Sequence record: PP920553.1
Reading direction: 5' to 3' (one strand)
Source of the DNA: Escherichia phage SM_A8
DNA: 44,559 nt
Shown here: piece by piece, positions 10,298-39,812 of the stretch
Position numbering within the stretch: the first letter of the stretch is position 1
How the letters are laid out: each line of letters begins with the position of its first letter
Program-made: the position numbers and the translations under genes
Notes under the pieces: generated by a model
What the model was told of the DNA's origin: nothing
The model's input: only the letters and a program-made list of their open reading frames with translations
Database searches by the model: none

Positions 10298-11023
10298 ATG
10301 GGTTATCAACTTCCTAACGGGTCTAGCGTCCAGATTGGGTCCGTACTGGGCAACGGCATCGCTGTTACGGCAGCTACCAACGCCGCCGCGTCGATCTCCG
10401 ACCTTACGCAAGGTTGCGTAATTACCTGCGCGGAGTCTCACGGTCTGGCTGTTGGCGACGTTGTTATGTTCACTAAAACCCCGTGGGTCCGTGCGCTGAA
10501 CCGCGCGTTCATCGTTGGTAAAGTATCGGGGAACGACGTTACACTGGCGCGCTTCGATACTCAAGACGCCACCAAATACCCGACCGGTGCTTTCGGCGTA
10601 GGCACACCAGGCGAGGTGGTGAAGGTGTCGAGCTTTATCGACTTCCCGTTTATCACTAACGTCGCCGTGTCTGGTGGCGACCAGCAGACTACTACCTTCC
10701 AGCCGTTGCAGGTGAATACCGCGATTAGTCTGAATACCACGAAAAACCCGTTGGTCCAGACTTACACCTTCACCCATGACGAAGAAGACCCGATCCGCCC
10801 GATTCTGGAAGACCTGGACGACACACAGAAAACCACTGTGATTAAGTTCACTAACCCGGCAGCGGCAAGCGGCAAAGGTGAGATCCGCATTTACCCGGCT
10901 AAGGTGTCTTTCCGGAAGATTCCATCGGCTGAAGTAAACAACGTGGAGACGGTGGAGTCCACTCTGACCATGCAATCCGATATGGTTATTTACCGTAAGG
11001 ACCTGGTTGAAGCGCTGTCGTAA
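10298..11023 (+). CDS. major tail protein
   Basis: 241 aa, strong RBS CAGGAG; followed by terminator and G/GT chaperone pair as in lambda V-G-T-H order. Confidence 0.6.
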   Translation: MGYQLPNGSSVQIGSVLGNGIAVTAATNAAASISDLTQGCVITCAESHGLAVGDVVMFTKTPWVRALNRAFIVGKVSGNDVTLARFDTQDATKYPTGAFGVGTPGEVVKVSSFIDFPFITNVAVSGGDQQTTTFQPLQVNTAISLNTTKNPLVQTYTFTHDEEDPIRPILEDLDDTQKTTVIKFTNPAAASGKGEIRIYPAKVSFRKIPSAEVNNVETVESTLTMQSDMVIYRKDLVEALS

Positions 11024-11053
11024 TTTGGTCGCTTAAATAGCGGGTGTTAATAT

Positions 11054-11076
11054 GGGGCCAGTACGGCCCCTTTTTT
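11054..11076 (+). terminator. rho-independent terminator after major tail gene
   Basis: GGGGCC-agtac-GGCCCC followed by T6. Confidence 0.6.
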
Positions 11077-11092
11077 ATTGGAGAATACTACA

Positions 11093-11455
11093 ATGGCAAA
11101 AGCACCACTCTTCACACTTGACCCTAAGCCGACCTTTAAGCTGCCGATTGAGATCCCGCGCCCCGGTGAAAACGAACCGGGAAAAATGACGTTTACCGTG
11201 CGCCACCGCCCGATCGACGAATTTTCGCAGACCATGCAGGATACTGAGCGCAAGTTGTCGGAATATGACGACAATGATCCTGACGGCTTTAACGTTATGG
11301 TCGAGGCCATCATGCACGTCGCAGAAGGCTGGAATCTGTCGGACGAATTTAACGCGGAGAACGTCCGCCGCCTGGTGGTCAACTATCCGCGCGCGTTCGG
11401 CGTGTTCCACACGTCGTACTATCTCGAACTGATGGGGTTGCGTGAAAAAAACTAA
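11093..11455 (+). CDS. tail assembly chaperone (lambda G-like)
   Basis: ATG 11093 with GGAGA RBS; acidic ~120-aa protein directly upstream of tape measure region; ends in slippery heptamer. Confidence 0.65.
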   Translation: MAKAPLFTLDPKPTFKLPIEIPRPGENEPGKMTFTVRHRPIDEFSQTMQDTERKLSEYDDNDPDGFNVMVEAIMHVAEGWNLSDEFNAENVRRLVVNYPRAFGVFHTSYYLELMGLREKN

Positions 11456-11769
11456 TTGAGGCGGCGCGACGCTTTTATGGCCCGCCGCCACCCTCCGAAG
11501 ATTTAGCCGCAAGTTTATGGGGTGCGGCCCCCGAAGATGTTTGTCCGCCTGTTGCGCTATGGCCCGACAACGCGAAAGTGGTCGCAGTCTTCACAGATTG
11601 CTCCACGCAATGGCGCACCGGTTTTGGTGGCGCATACGGCATCGACTACGGCGTGCTGGAGTGGTTATTTAAGATGCACGGTATCGAAAACGAGCAGCGC
11701 GCGTTTAAAGATATCAAGCTAATGGAGCGAATCGCGCTTGATGAGATGGCGCAGCAGAACCCCGCATAA
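11093..11769 (+). CDS. tail assembly chaperone frameshift fusion (G-T-like), made by -1 ribosomal frameshift
   Basis: -1 frame is open from 11446 to stop at 11769 and overlaps the G stop; the shift site is A_AAA_AAC at 11446-11452. Confidence 0.55.
11446..11452 (+). promoter_or_regulatory. programmed -1 frameshift slippery heptamer A_AAA_AAC
   Basis: zero-frame codons GAA AAA AAC TAA; the -1 frame has TGA at 11443-11445 and is open from 11446. Confidence 0.6.
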
Positions 11770-11771
11770 TG

Positions 11772-12090
11772 AAGCGGGACAGGCGGGACGTCCCGTTTTG
11801 TCCCGCCTCTGTAAAACTGCATATCTACTCACTTCCACTGCATAAACTCAAAACGGGACAAGCGGGACGTCCCGTTTTGTCACGCCCTGTAAATATGCAT
11901 ACCTATGCAGATTTCGTGCATAAACCAAACGGGACAAAAAGCGGGACAAACAAGGGGCGGGACAAAGCGGGACAGCACCCCAGTCCCGCCAGTGCTGCCG
12001 CGGGGTTTAGCCGATCGGGACAGGCGGGACAAAGCCCAGTCTTTCAGACTAGACGGGGGTCAATGGCCCCCCTCGTCTGAGACTGAATAA
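11772..12090. repeat. GCGGGACA repeat array region, including 173-bp element copy A (11918-12090)
   Basis: at least 10 direct CGGGACA/CGGGACG copies plus inverted GTCCCGCC copies; two ~80-bp tandem units (11772-11917) then a 173-bp element ending in a GC-rich hairpin; colinear copy at 39640-39812. Confidence 0.7.
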
Positions 12091-12153
12091 GGTTTGTTTT
12101 GAAATCGCTGATACAATATCCATCGGCAACTGCATAAAAAAGGGGACTGCATA

Positions 12154-14796
12154 ATGGCAGATCAGGCAGCAGGCATCACGCTAAAGGCTGATGTTGCACA
12201 AATCAGAACGGCAAATACTGTGCTGGACACATTTGCGCAGAAATCAGAGAACACAGAACAGAAAGTAAAGAAATTAAACGACACACTAGGCAAGTCGAAA
12301 AAGGTTACTGGCGACGCCGCGGGTGGAATGGAAAAGTTAGCGACTGAATCGCAGCGCGCCGCCGACGGCATGACGAAACAGGAGCGACTCGCCAGCCGAT
12401 TAGGCATGTCGACCAAAAACCTGGGATTTGCTTCACGGAACGCTGCATTCCAGTTACAGGATATTGCAGTAACGCTTGAGATGGGTATGCCGGTGCACCG
12501 CGTTATGCTTCAGCAGTTACCTCAGCTTACTGGGGCGTTTGGCGGACTGGGTAACACGCTGCGATATGTTGCTGGCTTCCTCGGTCCAGTTGGGATCGGC
12601 CTTGCTGCGGTAACGGCAACGTTAGGCGTGGGCGTAGCAATTACGTCCCGCGCAGAGAACCAGGTCGCAGCGCTTAACAAGACGCTGGCGCTGTCAGGTA
12701 ACATTTCCGGCCTCACCGCTAACCAGATCCTTGTGCTGTCGGAGAACGCCGAGCGTATGGGCGGGTCATTCAGTAAGACGCGTGACACAATCCAGGCGCT
12801 GGCAGCAGCGGGTGTGAAAGCGGGCGCTGACTTCGGCGCGCTGGCGAAAGTGGTGAATGACTTTGCGAAGGCGTCTAATCAGCCGATCTCTGACGTGGTT
12901 GAATCCATCTCAAAATTGTCGAACGACCCGGTCGGGGGACTGCGTGCGCTGGCGGATAAGTATCATGTTGTAACCGAAGCGCAGATCCAGCAGGTGCAAT
13001 CGCTTGTAGATATGGGGCGTGAAACGGACGCGGTTGCTCTGGCTAACAAAACCGCAGCTGCGTCGTTCTCCAGCATGACCAGTGAGATCAAGTCCAACAT
13101 GGGTACGCTCGAGCGGTCGATGAACGTCGTCACATCGGCAGCCAAATCCATGTGGGACGCCATCCTGGATGTAGGACGCGCGCAGTCATCGAATGAGTCC
13201 GAGATGAAAGCGCGTGAGTCCTTGCAGCGCATGACCACGGCTTACTATGCCGAGATGAGAGCGGTAAACGCTGCCGGTGGGGTGATGACCGAAGCGCAGA
13301 AAGCGCGTATTAACATGCTTTACAGCGAACTGGTCGCCCAGGAAAAGGTAGTGGCGTCGCTCACCCTGCGCAACCGTGCCGAGCGAGACAGCGCCCGCGC
13401 CGCGGATGAAGCCGCAAAGGCGAACGAGGAGGCAAACCGCACCGCCCGCGACCGCGCCGCGTTTGAGAAGGAGTACGCAACCAACGCGAAGCGGCGAGCC
13501 GACGAGATAGCCCGCCTCAATTTGCTGAAGAAGCGCGGTGTTATTAACGAGAAAGAACTAGCCGAGGCGGTGAAGCAGGTCAACGAGCGCTACAAAGACC
13601 CCGCACCAAAAAAGGCGGCGGCAGTTCGAGTAGATGCCGGGCTGAAAATGCTGGAGGTCGCGCGAAGCGAACTGGCACAGCTGCGAGAATCAGGCAAGCA
13701 GATCGAAGCCAACGCGTCGACGCAGACCCGATCGCAACGCGCTCAATCAGCACTTAACAAGCTGATCGCAGATCATGAACAGTTAATCGCAGCAAGCAAA
13801 GAAAGAGCGCTAACGGCAGCGGAAAAGCAGCAAATTGCGGGTTTCGAGGAGGTTAAATCGGTACGCGAGCAGATCGTCGAAGAAGCCAAATTGCTGGACG
13901 CGAAAGAGAAGCAGATCAAGGCACATGCCCAGGTCGAGACATTCATCAAGAACCAGAACGCCGAGCTAAAAGCCACCGCGGCGGGCTATGCGCTTTCCAC
14001 TCGCGAAGCGGCTAACCTGCGCGAAGAATTGCAGCTAATTGACCGCCTTCAGCGTGTCGGTGCTAACGATACCGATATCGACAAGGCGGTGTCTAAGCTG
14101 CGCGAAGTGCAGGAAGCACAGACCGGTGCTAACGCCTCGCTATGGGATGGCTTCAGCCGCGGGCTTAAGGATAGCGTTGATGAAATGGGTAACGGCTATA
14201 CGCAGATGACGTCACTCACAAAATTCACGTTCGGCGCTATGCAGGACACGATGAACGAGTTTTTCGAGACTGGCAAGCTGAACGCAAAAGATATGGTTAA
14301 GTCCATTCTGAGCGAATTAATAAAGCTGGCTACCTCGCAGGCGTTCAAGTCCATCGTTAGCGCTTTCGGTGGCGACGGCGGCAAAAACGGATTGTTCGGC
14401 GCTATCTTTTCCGGCCTCACTAAGAATGCGGACGGCGGAGCGTACGCAGGGGGCAATCTTGCGGCCTATTCGGGGCAAGTGGTAAGCCAGCCCACCTTTT
14501 TCAGTTATGGCGTCCAGGCGTTCGCTAAGGGCGCAGGATTGATGGGCGAGGCTGGTCCCGAGGCCATCATGCCGCTGAAGCGCGGGCCGGACGGGAAACT
14601 GGGCGTTGCCGCGTCTGGCGCAGGCGGTGGTATGGTCGTGACGACTAACGTTTACACGGGGACCGGTAAAACGGATACCAGTGTCAGCGGGCCGGATCCC
14701 CGTACCGCGCAGGCGTTCGGCAAGCAAATCACCGAGGCGGTGAAGGCCGAGATCGTGAAGGCGACGAAACCGGGTGGTGTACTTTACAAACGATGA
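12154..14796 (+). CDS. tail tape measure protein
   Basis: 880 aa, long A/E/K/Q-rich helical regions, Gly-rich C-terminal part; sits between chaperone and tip genes. Confidence 0.85.
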   Translation: MADQAAGITLKADVAQIRTANTVLDTFAQKSENTEQKVKKLNDTLGKSKKVTGDAAGGMEKLATESQRAADGMTKQERLASRLGMSTKNLGFASRNAAFQLQDIAVTLEMGMPVHRVMLQQLPQLTGAFGGLGNTLRYVAGFLGPVGIGLAAVTATLGVGVAITSRAENQVAALNKTLALSGNISGLTANQILVLSENAERMGGSFSKTRDTIQALAAAGVKAGADFGALAKVVNDFAKASNQPISDVVESISKLSNDPVGGLRALADKYHVVTEAQIQQVQSLVDMGRETDAVALANKTAAASFSSMTSEIKSNMGTLERSMNVVTSAAKSMWDAILDVGRAQSSNESEMKARESLQRMTTAYYAEMRAVNAAGGVMTEAQKARINMLYSELVAQEKVVASLTLRNRAERDSARAADEAAKANEEANRTARDRAAFEKEYATNAKRRADEIARLNLLKKRGVINEKELAEAVKQVNERYKDPAPKKAAAVRVDAGLKMLEVARSELAQLRESGKQIEANASTQTRSQRAQSALNKLIADHEQLIAASKERALTAAEKQQIAGFEEVKSVREQIVEEAKLLDAKEKQIKAHAQVETFIKNQNAELKATAAGYALSTREAANLREELQLIDRLQRVGANDTDIDKAVSKLREVQEAQTGANASLWDGFSRGLKDSVDEMGNGYTQMTSLTKFTFGAMQDTMNEFFETGKLNAKDMVKSILSELIKLATSQAFKSIVSAFGGDGGKNGLFGAIFSGLTKNADGGAYAGGNLAAYSGQVVSQPTFFSYGVQAFAKGAGLMGEAGPEAIMPLKRGPDGKLGVAASGAGGGMVVTTNVYTGTGKTDTSVSGPDPRTAQAFGKQITEAVKAEIVKATKPGGVLYKR

Positions 14797-26557: not shown

Positions 26558-26881
26558 TTACGCATAAAAGTTCGTGTCGCGTGCAACGTCTACCAGGTAA
26601 AGGTTGCTTATGCGGTTGCCGTAGTGCCCTGGAGTGCGCTGGCGGCACACAACGGCGAAGCCTGGAGGGATTGTATTGCCCGTCGCAATAATCCACGCCA
26701 CGCGTGCGCCAGACAGCGTCTTGCCGTTGCATTCGATACGGGTTCCGCCATCGGCGGTGTTGATGTTGCCAATCTTGCATCCGGTGGACTTCAGACGGAT
26801 GACTCCGGTTTTGCTGTCGTATGTGAATAGCTGATTGGTCATTGCCACTGAAAAGTCGATTGCGTCGAATGCAGTATTCAT
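26558..26881 (-). CDS. small HNH-like endonuclease (degenerate, putative)
   Basis: 107 aa; GK...ARVAW...GNRISNLYLV pattern resembles HNH_3; start ATGA-coupled to upstream gene, GAGGA RBS. Confidence 0.35.
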   Translation of the reverse strand: MNTAFDAIDFSVAMTNQLFTYDSKTGVIRLKSTGCKIGNINTADGGTRIECNGKTLSGARVAWIIATGNTIPPGFAVVCRQRTPGHYGNRISNLYLVDVARDTNFYA

Positions 26882-27588
26882 TTTAAATTTTCCTCGTTAA
26901 CCGCTATCGCGAAGCCGCGCGGGGTGAGTGAGCGGATTAATTTTGTACGAGCGGATTTACCACCGAGGCGACTATACTGCTTCGAGTACCCTTTTTCAAC
27001 GAAAACAGGTTTCTTCTCGGGCATACGGAAGCCGTTTCCAGTCCATAAGCAGGTCAGCTTCGGATATGAATCGCGGGCGTTGATGTATTCAGGGAAGAGC
27101 GGGTGTACGTCATCCTCTGGCAGATATCCGCCATACTCCCACGGGTCAAACGAGTGGTCCGGCTTACGCCACTGGGTGGAAAGCACGCTGCGCGGATTCT
27201 CAATCATATATGGCACTTCGAAGAAATCACCCAGGTAAGCTGCGATCTTCGCGGTGCGCACCGCCTTAAGCTGGAAGGCAGGGTCGCGGGCGCGTTTGCG
27301 CGGGAAAGCTGGCGCACCGCTAACCGCCAGATCCGTACACGGCGGGAATGCGTAAATGATATCCGGCGTGCCGAAATCGCCATTCATCGCGCGATCCACG
27401 AAGTCCAGGTCGATAAACTCATTACGATAGCGAATGCCGCGGCCATAGATCCGGTAGTCCAGGTAAGACCCGTGATCGGCTTCGGAGTAGTTGAAGCAAT
27501 AACACTTATGCCCCATCTCGGCAGCACGCTCAATCATCAAGCCGCTGCCGTCAAACAATGACCAGATTGTCATTTTAGCAATAGTCAT
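26878..27588 (-). CDS. cytosine-C5 methyltransferase-like protein (short)
   Basis: motif I-like LFDGSGL, motif IV-like FPPCTDLAVSG (PC motif), motif VI-like ENP; only 236 aa so the target recognition region may be minimal. Confidence 0.5.
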   Translation of the reverse strand: MTIAKMTIWSLFDGSGLMIERAAEMGHKCYCFNYSEADHGSYLDYRIYGRGIRYRNEFIDLDFVDRAMNGDFGTPDIIYAFPPCTDLAVSGAPAFPRKRARDPAFQLKAVRTAKIAAYLGDFFEVPYMIENPRSVLSTQWRKPDHSFDPWEYGGYLPEDDVHPLFPEYINARDSYPKLTCLWTGNGFRMPEKKPVFVEKGYSKQYSRLGGKSARTKLIRSLTPRGFAIAVNEENLK

Positions 27589-39639: not shown

Positions 39640-39812
39640 GCATAAAGTAAGCGGGACAAAAAGCGGGACAAACAAGGGGCGGGACAAAGCGGGACAGCAC
39701 CCCTGTCCCGCCACGGATGGCGCGGCTTCCAGAGGAGCGGGACAGGCGGGACAAACCCCAGTCTTTCAGACTAGACGGGGGTCAGTGGCCCCCCTCGTCT
39801 GAGACTGAATAA
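39640..39812. repeat. 173-bp repeat element copy B with GCGGGACA array and GC-rich hairpin
   Basis: colinear with 11918-12090, no indels; CGGGACA copies at identical offsets (12, 24, 40, 50, 98, 107); central ~26 nt diverged. Confidence 0.7.

What the first reader, a model, noticed from the sequence alone, without database searches (positions are those of the whole stretch)
11441..11769. Programmed -1 frameshift site A_AAA_AAC in the tail assembly chaperone pair
The G-like chaperone ORF ends GAA AAA AAC TAA (11444-11455). The -1 frame has TGA at 11443-11445 and is then open from 11446 to 11769, so slippage on the heptamer A_AAA_AAC (11446-11452) would fuse ~107 extra residues. This copies the conserved G/GT arrangement upstream of tape measure genes and independently supports the tail-module assignment.
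Basis: partly seen in the sequence, partly recalled or inferred. Interest (0 to 1): 0.5.

Follow-up and report, generated by a model that had tools for sequence, protein, structure and literature searches.

The report
Tail chaperone G/GT frameshift site
This is the ordinary, well-known ribosomal "-1 slip" that lets a tailed phage make a short and a long version of its tail-assembly chaperone from one gene pair; it is real and strongly conserved here, but not new.

Summary
The window is an E. coli Dhillonvirus (HK578-like siphophage). The 120-aa chaperone gene (11093-11455, Pfam Phage_TAC_4) ends CGT GAA AAA AAC TAA. The -1 frame is closed by TGA 11443-11445 and then open to TAA 11767-11769. 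It encodes a complete DUF1799 domain and has no start codon for 42 codons.

In 46 of 46 related loci, down to 28% protein identity and including T1-like phages, the last seven bases before the chaperone stop are a phased X_XXA_AAC heptamer. [quoted passage not shown]

Substitutions among 18 Dhillonvirus sequences fall on third positions of the -1 frame from the junction onward. Synonymous variation is almost absent across the heptamer, stop, 7-nt spacer and a GC hairpin (11460-11489).

Best reading: tandem -1 ribosomal slippage producing a 225-aa GT fusion at a low ratio, as in lambda G/GT. The stimulatory role of the hairpin is only suggested. Transcriptional slippage and independent initiation are unlikely. 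This is a known kind of feature, and it is not annotated as a fusion in the six Dhillonvirus records whose feature tables were read. Low interest.

The parts
10298..11023 (+). Major tail (tube) protein gene, the upstream neighbour
   Evidence: PF08813 Phage_tail_3 at 1.3e-32; phrog_584 major tail protein at 3.3e-74
11093..11455 (+). G-like tail assembly chaperone ORF (120 aa, zero frame), preceded by Shine-Dalgarno GGAG at 11080-11083
   Evidence: PF08748 Phage_TAC_4 matched over its full length, E=1.9e-23; translation; Shine-Dalgarno duplex -6.4 kcal/mol
11443..11445 (+). TGA that closes the -1 frame just upstream of the slip site. The only overlap between the two frames is therefore the heptamer itself.
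11446..11452 (+). Slippery heptamer A_AAA_AAC, with P-site codon AAA and A-site codon AAC
   Evidence: A phased X_XXA_AAC heptamer is conserved in 46 of 46 related loci, in three different forms. No variable site occurs here among 18 Dhillonvirus sequences.
11453..11455 (+). Zero-frame stop TAA directly abutting the heptamer. Bases 11452-11454 (CTA) form the first -1-frame codon, Leu.
   Evidence: A stop (TAA, TGA or TAG) directly follows the heptamer in all 46 loci
11460..11489 (+). Predicted hairpin 7 nt after the heptamer. The outer stem pairs GGCGGCG (11460-11466) with CGCCGCC (11483-11489). It is a candidate frameshift stimulator.
   Evidence: MFE -17.1 kcal/mol for the first 60 nt after the heptamer, in which this hairpin is the only structure; the same hairpin is predicted. 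Only 1 of 15 third-codon positions varies in 11446-11489, against 143 of 225 overall, P=3.6e-6. However, it is not more stable than shuffles (z=-0.6) or synonymous recodings (11.5% are as stable), and there is no family-wide consensus structure.
11452..11769 (+). T-like extension in the -1 frame (105 codons plus TAA at 11767-11769), expressed only as the C-terminal part of the 225-aa GT fusion
   Evidence: PF08809 DUF1799, E=2.8e-21, covering extension residues 25-101. phrog_17368 matches G at profile positions 1-107 and T at 147-212. Variable sites in 11455-11577 number 8/3/25 by codon position in this frame.
12154..14796 (+). Tape measure protein gene, the downstream neighbour
   Evidence: PF06791 TMP_2 at 5.8e-44, PF09718 at 7.6e-14, phrog_24 at 7.6e-182

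Best explanation
This is a programmed -1 ribosomal frameshift of the lambda G/GT type. Most ribosomes translate the chaperone gene to Asn120 and terminate at TAA 11453, which gives the 120-aa G-like chaperone. A minority slip. With tRNA-Lys on AAA (11447-11449) in the P site and tRNA-Asn on AAC (11450-11452) in the A site, both tRNAs move back one base to AAA AAA (11446-11451). The ribosome then reads CTA ATT GAG... in the -1 frame and makes a 225-aa fusion (...GLREKN-LIEAARRFYGPPPP...) whose C-terminal part is a DUF1799 'T' domain.

By analogy with lambda (inferred, not shown here), the G part of both proteins coats the tape measure protein and the rare T domain recruits the tail tube protein. 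A low, fixed GT:G ratio would therefore be built into the mRNA.

The heptamer class X_XXA_AAC is a weak slipper in E. coli, which suits a low ratio. The abutting stop codon and, in the Dhillonvirus lineage, a GC hairpin 7 nt downstream (11460-11489) are candidate modulators.

Shown here: the anatomy, the protein families, conservation of the phased heptamer, protein-level selection in the -1 frame from the junction onward, and the absence of an initiation signal. Inferred: that slippage actually occurs, its efficiency, the role of the hairpin and stop codon, and the protein-binding roles.
For: 1. **Anatomy.** The anatomy is exact.
2. **Gene order.** The order is tube protein, TAC_4 chaperone, DUF1799 in the -1 frame, then tape measure.
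3. **Heptamer conservation.** In 46 of 46 loci the last 7 nt before the chaperone stop form a phased X_XXY_YYZ heptamer: A_AAA_AAC in 42, G_GGA_AAC in 3 (L023, L029, L045) and T_TTA_AAC in 1 (L030). Each is followed by a -1 extension of 101-118 codons (L025 is cut by the contig end). The loci comprise the window, 15 Dhillonvirus contigs, relatives at 28-59% G identity from viral contigs, metagenome assemblies and MAG contigs, two T1-like phages and Cronobacter phiES15.
4. **First heptamer base.** The codon that supplies the first heptamer base varies in amino acid: GAA, GCA, AGA, CTA, ACA and GTA for A; CTG and TTG for G; CGT for T. Its third base always equals X. This is what P-site re-pairing requires and what coding does not.
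5. **Protein conservation.** T-frame protein sequence is conserved from the first codon after the junction (L-x-x-A...Y..PP..E), before any start codon.
6. **Substitution pattern.** Among 18 distinct Dhillonvirus sequences, variable sites in 11455-11577 number 8/3/25 by T-frame codon position. The G ORF gives 11/6/75 in its own frame.
7. **No initiation signal.** The first start codon in the T frame wanders from codon 4 to codon 74 between loci. GTG 11578 and GTG 11653 lack a Shine-Dalgarno sequence.
8. **Gene-called T homologues.** T homologues have 1113 representatives at 50% identity. The best 150 are all 38-150 aa, and their called N-termini are scattered from -42 to +68 relative to the junction. 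None is an in-frame G-T fusion.
9. **Suppressed synonymous variation.** The heptamer-stop-spacer-hairpin stretch has the lowest synonymous variation in the whole G-T region: 1 of 15 third positions varies, P=3.6e-6.
10. **Literature.** Lambda G/GT has a 30:1 ratio (PMC5009743). A_AAA_AAC is the proven, low-efficiency IS1 site in E. coli (PMC4066793). [quoted passage not shown] AAAAAAC adjacent to the chaperone stop has been reported in phage Loki (PMC5313236).
Against: There is no direct evidence of the fusion protein: no proteomics or reporter data exist for this genus, and a literature search found none.

The stimulator is unproven. The hairpin is no more stable than dinucleotide shuffles (z=-0.61) or synonymous recodings of the same peptide (11.5% are as stable). 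No consensus structure is shared across the diverged family. There is no conserved upstream Shine-Dalgarno-like element: positions 11437-11438 vary.

The low synonymous variation could also reflect a locally shared history, since the sequences are related and recombine.
Confidence: 0.9

Rival explanations
1. Transcriptional slippage. RNA polymerase stutters on the run of seven A (11445-11451) and inserts one extra A into some transcripts. Standard translation of those mRNAs then gives a G-T fusion (...REKK-LIEA...).
For: The window has an uninterrupted A7 run. One inserted A would put the T frame in phase. Transcriptional slippage is a known route to fusion proteins in IS elements and some viruses (PMC5009743).
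Against: Four relatives keep the same architecture with GGGAAAC or TTTAAAC. These have no homopolymer run longer than 3 but still obey the tandem-slippage rule. What is conserved family-wide is X_XXY_YYZ in phase, not run length. From my own knowledge rather than a test here, A7 is shorter than the runs of about 9 or more usually needed for appreciable slippage by E. coli RNA polymerase. A minor contribution in this particular phage is not excluded.
Confidence: 0.05
2. Independent initiation. The downstream ORF is a separate small gene translated from an internal start (GTG 11578, GTG 11653 or ATG 11674), as GenBank records annotate it, and no fusion is made.
For: Public records call separate CDSs of 39 to 104 aa here. 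ATG 11674 has a GGAG-like sequence upstream (-6.0 kcal/mol).
Against: The DUF1799 match and the cross-family protein conservation begin at or near the junction, far upstream of these starts. Third-position bias of substitutions already holds in 11455-11577. The first start codon is at a different place in nearly every lineage. GTG 11578 and GTG 11653 have no Shine-Dalgarno sequence. ATG 11674 would give only 31 aa, a fragment of the domain.
Confidence: 0.03
3. Same product by a different kinetic route ('shifty stop'). The slip happens one codon later, when peptidyl-tRNA-Asn sits on AAC in the P site and the slowly decoded stop codon is in the A site. Only that tRNA moves back to AAA, and CTA is then read.
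For: The zero-frame stop directly abuts the heptamer in 46 of 46 loci, using TAA, TGA or TAG. Stop codons next to slip sites are known stimulators ('shifty stop', PMC5009743).
Against: The first base of the heptamer is conserved as X in every locus, even though the amino acid encoded by its codon varies. This is expected for two-tRNA slippage and is not needed for a one-tRNA slip on A_AAC. In addition, stop adjacency follows partly from the conserved -1-frame Leu (CTR) plus a purine-initial next codon.
Confidence: 0.1

Closest known systems
Phage lambda G/GT tail assembly chaperones (Levin, Hendrix & Casjens 1993; Xu, Hendrix & Duda 2004, 2013, 2014)
   Same: The two overlapping ORFs lie between the tail tube and tape measure genes. 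The second ORF is in the -1 frame without its own start. A slippery heptamer sits at the 3' end of the first ORF. The products are a short abundant chaperone and a rare C-terminally extended fusion, at about 30:1 in lambda.
   Different: The Pfam scan here returned PF08748 and PF08809 only. That lambda's own G and T belong to other Pfam families is my recollection and was not tested here. The heptamer is A_AAA_AAC rather than lambda's G_GGA_AAG. Here the zero-frame stop abuts the heptamer. Nothing has been shown experimentally for this phage group.
T1-like (Drexlerviridae) 'tape measure chaperone' pair
   Same: These are true homologues, with T at 35-39% identity by tblastn. SRT8 and JLBYU07 have the same A_AAA_AAC plus TAA and a 106-codon -1 extension. 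The pair is described in the literature as carrying the conserved translational frameshift (phage Stevie, PMC4319613).
   Different: They belong to a different phage family. The downstream RNA sequence is different (GGGCGGUUU...AAACCGCCC in SRT8), and no structure shared with the Dhillonvirus hairpin was found.
IS1 insA-insB' frameshift in E. coli
   Same: It uses the identical heptamer A_AAA_AAC in the same host. It is a proven -1 frameshift of low efficiency with no established stimulator, used to make a small amount of a fusion protein (PMC4066793).
   Different: It makes a transposase, not a virion assembly factor, and the proteins are unrelated.
Acinetobacter phage Loki gp12/gp13
   Same: [quoted passage not shown] This is the same site architecture.
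   Different: It is also only a prediction. Homology to the proteins here was not tested.
E. coli dnaX A_AAA_AAG frameshift cassette
   Same: It has an A-rich heptamer followed after a short spacer by a stem-loop.
   Different: dnaX uses the highly efficient AAG A-site codon, an upstream Shine-Dalgarno-like stimulator and a proven hairpin, and its frameshift product is shorter. Here the motif is weak, no conserved Shine-Dalgarno-like element exists and the hairpin is unproven.

Membership tests
G/GT-type tail assembly chaperone -1 frameshift (Xu, Hendrix & Duda 2004) | The gene pair lies between the major tail (tube) gene and the tape measure gene | tested here: met
   PF08813 at 10298-11023; the pair at 11093-11769; PF06791/PF09718 at 12154-14796
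G/GT-type tail assembly chaperone -1 frameshift (Xu, Hendrix & Duda 2004) | The second ORF is in the -1 frame, overlaps the end of the first, and lacks its own start codon and ribosome-binding site | tested here: met
   The -1 frame is open from 11446. The first start codon is GTG 11578 and has no Shine-Dalgarno sequence. The start position is not conserved in relatives.
G/GT-type tail assembly chaperone -1 frameshift (Xu, Hendrix & Duda 2004) | A canonical slippery sequence (X_XXY_YYZ), phased with the first ORF, lies inside the overlap | tested here: met
   A_AAA_AAC at 11446-11452 in phase
G/GT-type tail assembly chaperone -1 frameshift (Xu, Hendrix & Duda 2004) | The slip site and two-frame arrangement are conserved in diverged relatives | tested here: met
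   Found in 46 of 46 loci, with three different heptamers that all obey the rule
G/GT-type tail assembly chaperone -1 frameshift (Xu, Hendrix & Duda 2004) | The extension is under protein-level selection from the junction onward | tested here: met
   Variable sites number 8/3/25 by codon position in 11455-11577. Residues are conserved from position 1 of T. DUF1799 begins upstream of any start codon.
G/GT-type tail assembly chaperone -1 frameshift (Xu, Hendrix & Duda 2004) | Both G and the GT fusion are actually synthesised at a fixed low ratio, and both are required for tail assembly | not testable with these tools
   This needs a reporter assay, a western blot or mass spectrometry, and phage genetics
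G/GT-type tail assembly chaperone -1 frameshift (Xu, Hendrix & Duda 2004) | G binds the tape measure protein and T binds the tail tube protein | not testable with these tools
   Inferred from lambda only (PMC5009743)
Pfam PF08748 Phage_TAC_4 | Score above the gathering threshold over the whole domain | tested here: met
   83.5 bits against a cut-off of 21.1; residues 1-120 match profile positions 1-124 of 124
Pfam PF08809 DUF1799 | Score above the gathering threshold over the whole domain | tested here: met
   76 bits against a cut-off of 26; extension residues 25-101 match profile positions 1-80 of 80
Tail assembly chaperone fold (solved TAC structures) | The predicted structure matches a solved TAC | tested here: inconclusive
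   The AlphaFold2 model of G came from a 3-sequence alignment (pLDDT 64, pTM 0.54). No Foldseek PDB hit had E below 1, and there was no PDB sequence hit. The model is too weak to judge.
3' RNA-structure-stimulated -1 frameshift cassette (dnaX / IS3 type) | A stable, conserved stem-loop or pseudoknot lies 5-9 nt downstream of the heptamer | tested here: inconclusive
   A hairpin is predicted at a 7-nt spacer, -17.1 kcal/mol, and synonymous variation is suppressed over it (P=3.6e-6). It is kept in the 59%-identity relative L003 with a C-to-U change that preserves pairing. However, it is not more stable than shuffles or recodings, and RNAalifold finds no shared structure across 24 diverged sequences.
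Transcriptional slippage site | A long homopolymer run is the conserved element | tested here: not met
   The run here is A7. Relatives L023, L029 and L045 (GGGAAAC) and L030 (TTTAAAC) keep the architecture without any long run.

The most novel reading that the evidence does not exclude
The whole Phage_TAC_4/DUF1799 chaperone family, from Dhillonvirus and T1-like phages to MAG contigs assigned to Pseudomonadaceae, Rhodanobacter and Betaproteobacteria, may use one fixed cassette. That cassette is an X_XXA_AAC heptamer, the class that works best on eukaryotic ribosomes and poorly in E. coli reporters, always abutting the zero-frame stop codon. This could define a mechanistic subclass in which termination kinetics at the adjacent stop, together with lineage-specific hairpins, set the G:GT ratio rather than heptamer strength. 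The conserved Ala-Ala...Pro-Pro codons of the T N-terminus may be partly kept for RNA pairing.
Probability: 0.25. Interest if true: 0.35.

Novelty: already known. Interest (0 to 1): 0.15.

Why it matters
The main value is for annotation. The six Dhillonvirus records whose feature tables were read (JLBYU60, EE09, Opt212, HK578) or whose features were listed in the search output (KarlBarth, Zumzum) call the T region as unrelated fragments of 39 to 104 aa, or label the chaperones 'tail length tape measure protein'. None shows a joined GT product. Recognising the site gives the correct 225-aa GT protein and confirms the tail module.

For people who study recoding, the family-wide table is a tidy natural data set: 46 of 46 X_XXA_AAC heptamers abutting a stop, three heptamer variants, and a varying codon that supplies X1. 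It supports the tandem-slippage rule and the use of weak heptamers when a low ratio is wanted. It opens no new question.

Tried and rejected
- **Heptamer enrichment.** This was not informative: 5 copies against 8 expected.
- **Long -1 extension as a criterion.** It is not specific on its own, because 26 of 147 ORFs have one through ordinary ATGA overlaps. The only other site with an extension of at least 100 codons plus a heptamer (26878-27588, minus strand) is a normal ATGA overlap with its own Shine-Dalgarno sequence and ATG.
- **Word-indexed protein search with the fused GT sequence.** It returned only 3 hits and none of the close relatives. Their contigs were still useful.
- **Locus search with the T alignment.** The G alignment (motif DEFNAEN) worked.
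- **Representative search with the fused sequence.** T alone was used instead.
- **Family-wide consensus RNA structure.** None was found.
- **Hairpin stability.** It is not significant against dinucleotide shuffles or synonymous recodings.
- **Rfam.** Nothing relevant in 10900-12300.
- **Structure of G.** The model has low confidence, and there are no PDB fold or sequence matches.
- **Literature on a frameshift in Dhillonvirus specifically.** None was found.
- **Upstream Shine-Dalgarno-like stimulator (GGGG 11434-11437).** Rejected, because 11437-11438 vary among close relatives.

Full report
**What the window is.** A 1.9-kb query around the finding matches 158 phage records at 90-99% identity. 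Almost all are Escherichia phages of the genus Dhillonvirus (HK578-like siphophages), and the best match is JLBYU60 at 99.0%. The local gene order is:
- major tail protein, 10298-11023 (PF08813; phrog_584);
- a 120-aa ORF, 11093-11455;
- the region in question;
- the tape measure gene, 12154-14796 (PF06791, PF09718; phrog_24).

**The observation.** Bases 11441-11455 read CGT GAA AAA AAC TAA. The ORF starts at ATG 11093, nine bases after GGAG 11080-11083 (anti-Shine-Dalgarno duplex -6.4 kcal/mol), and encodes 120 aa. A_AAA_AAC occupies 11446-11452 in X_XXY_YYZ phase. In the -1 frame, TGA lies at 11443-11445. That frame is then open to TAA 11767-11769. After a tandem slip the next codon read is CTA 11452-11454, so 105 residues are added and the fusion is 225 aa. 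The first ATG/GTG/TTG in that frame is GTG 11578, 42 codons after the junction.

**Is it more than chance?** The heptamer alone is not: there are 5 copies in the window against 8.0 +/- 2.5 expected. A long open -1 frame past a stop is also common, seen in 26 of 147 ORFs of at least 80 aa, because neighbouring genes often overlap as ATGA. The one other site with a phased heptamer and more than 100 codons beyond the stop (minus strand, 26878-27588) is exactly such an overlap, with its own Shine-Dalgarno sequence and ATG. What sets 11446 apart is what follows.

**The proteins.** The 120-aa product matches Pfam Phage_TAC_4 end to end (83.5 bits, cut-off 21.1). The -1 extension matches DUF1799 end to end (76 bits, cut-off 26) over extension residues 25-101. 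The match therefore starts 20 codons before the first possible start codon. One PHROG profile of 213 positions (phrog_17368) matches G at positions 1-107 and T at 147-212, so that family contains the two parts joined.

**Relatives.** I collected the chaperone locus from:
- 15 Dhillonvirus viral contigs;
- 20 more distant viral contigs (28-46% identity over a full-length G match);
- three contigs from metagenome-assembled genomes assigned to Pseudomonadaceae, Rhodanobacter and a betaproteobacterium;
- two metagenome contigs at 59% identity;
- one contig whose G-like ORF has no Pfam family on record but whose T is DUF1799;
- two T1-like phages (SRT8, JLBYU07) and Cronobacter phage phiES15.

In all 46 loci the seven bases before the chaperone stop form a phased slippery heptamer: A_AAA_AAC in 42, G_GGA_AAC in 3 and T_TTA_AAC in 1. 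The stop (TAA, TGA or TAG) always abuts it. The -1 frame then runs 101-118 codons, except in one contig that is cut short.

The codon contributing the first heptamer base encodes Glu, Ala, Arg, Leu, Thr or Val in different lineages, yet its third base always equals the next two bases. That is the signature of selection for P-site re-pairing, not for an amino acid.

The T-frame peptide is conserved from its very first residue (L-x-x-A-...-Y-..PP..E-..). The first start codon in that frame lies anywhere from codon 4 to codon 74, and varies even within the genus (29, 42, 67 or 74).

A profile-free scan of 1.84 billion representatives found 1113 T homologues. The best 150 are all 38-150 aa, and their gene-called N-termini are scattered from -42 to +68 relative to the junction. 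None is an in-frame fusion.

**Substitution pattern.** Among 18 distinct Dhillonvirus sequences, variable sites in 11455-11577 (no start codon upstream) number 8/3/25 by codon position in the -1 frame. The same sites give 3/25/8 in the G frame. The G ORF shows 11/6/75 in its own frame. The stretch is therefore translated in the -1 frame right from the G stop.

**The RNA downstream.** Seven bases after the heptamer, GGCGGCG (11460-11466) can pair with CGCCGCC (11483-11489). With inner pairs the hairpin is -17.1 kcal/mol.
- *For a role.* The 45 bases from the heptamer through the 3' arm are the least variable synonymous stretch of the whole G-T region. Only 1 of 15 third positions varies, against 143 of 225 overall (hypergeometric P=3.6e-6), and the five lowest sliding windows all fall here. 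The 59%-identity relative L003 keeps the hairpin, with a C-to-U change that preserves pairing.
- *Against a role.* The fold is no better than dinucleotide shuffles (z=-0.61). It is only modestly better than synonymous recodings of the same peptide (z=-1.27; 11.5% are as stable). RNAalifold finds no structure shared by 24 diverged family members, although most have some stem starting 4-8 nt after the heptamer.

I therefore rate the hairpin as a plausible, lineage-specific stimulator, at about even odds. No conserved upstream Shine-Dalgarno-like element exists.

**Mechanism.** The best-supported mechanism is canonical two-tRNA -1 slippage on A_AAA_AAC, giving G (120 aa) and a minor GT (225 aa).
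- X_XXA_AAC motifs are weak in E. coli because tRNA-Asn re-pairs poorly on AAA (PMC4066793; PMC5009743). They are nonetheless used where a small amount of fusion protein is wanted, as in IS1. This fits the roughly 30:1 G:GT ratio needed in lambda.
- Transcriptional slippage on the A7 run would give a similar fusion, but it cannot explain the GGGAAAC and TTTAAAC relatives.
- Independent initiation is contradicted by the conservation upstream of all start codons and by the lack of a Shine-Dalgarno sequence.
- A one-tRNA 'shifty stop' slip is possible given the invariant adjacent stop, but it does not explain the conserved first heptamer base.

**Comparison with what is known.** This is the G/GT arrangement first shown for lambda and generalised to tailed phages by Xu, Hendrix and Duda (cited). 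The homologous T1-like chaperone pair has been described as carrying the conserved frameshift. [quoted passage not shown] The HK578 reference record annotates gp16 (DUF1799) from the last base of the G stop, a non-canonical ATT start, so its annotators evidently saw the whole -1 ORF. The other Dhillonvirus records I inspected annotate only fragments of 39-51 aa or mislabel the genes. I found no paper on the frameshift in this genus. The kind is known, the homologous family is known to do it, and this instance simply lacks a correct annotation and an experiment.

**What failed.** A structure model of G from three sequences was weak (pLDDT 64), and no PDB fold or sequence match was found. Fold-level membership in the tail assembly chaperone family therefore remains untested.

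**Verdict.** The site is a -1 programmed frameshift with high confidence (0.9). The stimulatory elements are unresolved. Novelty and interest are low.

Noticed in passing
window 11770-12153: The 385 bases between the T stop and the tape measure start are not an ordinary short intergenic gap. They hold 13 copies of CGGGACR in both orientations, a roughly 78-nt tandem duplication (11772-11847 and 11851-11925), and two perfect palindromes CGGGACGTCCCG followed by TTTT (11784-11799, 11863-11878). The HK578 record annotates the first palindrome as a rho-independent terminator. The motifs are conserved among Dhillonviruses while the spacers vary. This looks like a regulator-binding array or terminator placed between the chaperones and the tape measure gene.
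   Followed up: partly
window 39640-39812 compared with 11927-12090: A second, near-identical copy of the 3' part of that element lies about 28 kb away. It comprises the CGGGACA repeats plus 'cagtctttcagactagacgggggtca.tggcccccctcgtctgagactgaataa', preceded by a similar 'tgcataaa' motif. Twenty of the 28 CGGGACR copies in the window sit in these two clusters, and the window total is 28 against 15.8 +/- 3.7 expected. This would also account for the 2-3 matching places per record. Its function is unknown, and Rfam found nothing for the first copy.
   Followed up: partly
window 11769-12080 (+): This 103-aa ORF starts at an ATG overlapping the T stop and is annotated as a hypothetical protein in phage EE09. 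It is probably not a gene. It has no Pfam or PHROG hit. Variable sites are evenly spread over codon positions (42/48/40, against 8/6/31 in the adjacent tape measure gene). The frame is interrupted in at least one relative.
   Followed up: yes
window 11054-11076: A terminator-like hairpin, GGGGCC-AGTAC-GGCCCC followed by TTTTTT, lies between the major tail gene and the chaperone gene. Together with the annotated terminator at 11784-11801, it means the G/GT pair is bracketed by terminator-like sites. This may step down expression from tube protein to chaperones to tape measure.
   Followed up: no
public records matching 11093-11769: Annotation of this pair is inconsistent. T is called as 39 aa (JLBYU60, Opt212), as 51 plus 38 aa (EE09) and as 104 aa from an ATT codon (HK578). 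PHROG families phrog_569, phrog_680 and phrog_17368, which are chaperone G/T families, carry the label 'tail length tape measure protein'. That label reappears on these genes in several records, for example Zumzum, Envy and HK578 gp15.
   Followed up: partly
public records: Several records named 'Campylobacter phage' (A144, A123, A136, A139) match this E. coli phage module. A144 is 96.6% identical at the DNA level to the Dhillonvirus query, while A123, A136 and A139 match T at only 34-36% protein identity, among the T1-like hits. The A144 host label looks doubtful (contaminant or mislabelled).
   Followed up: no
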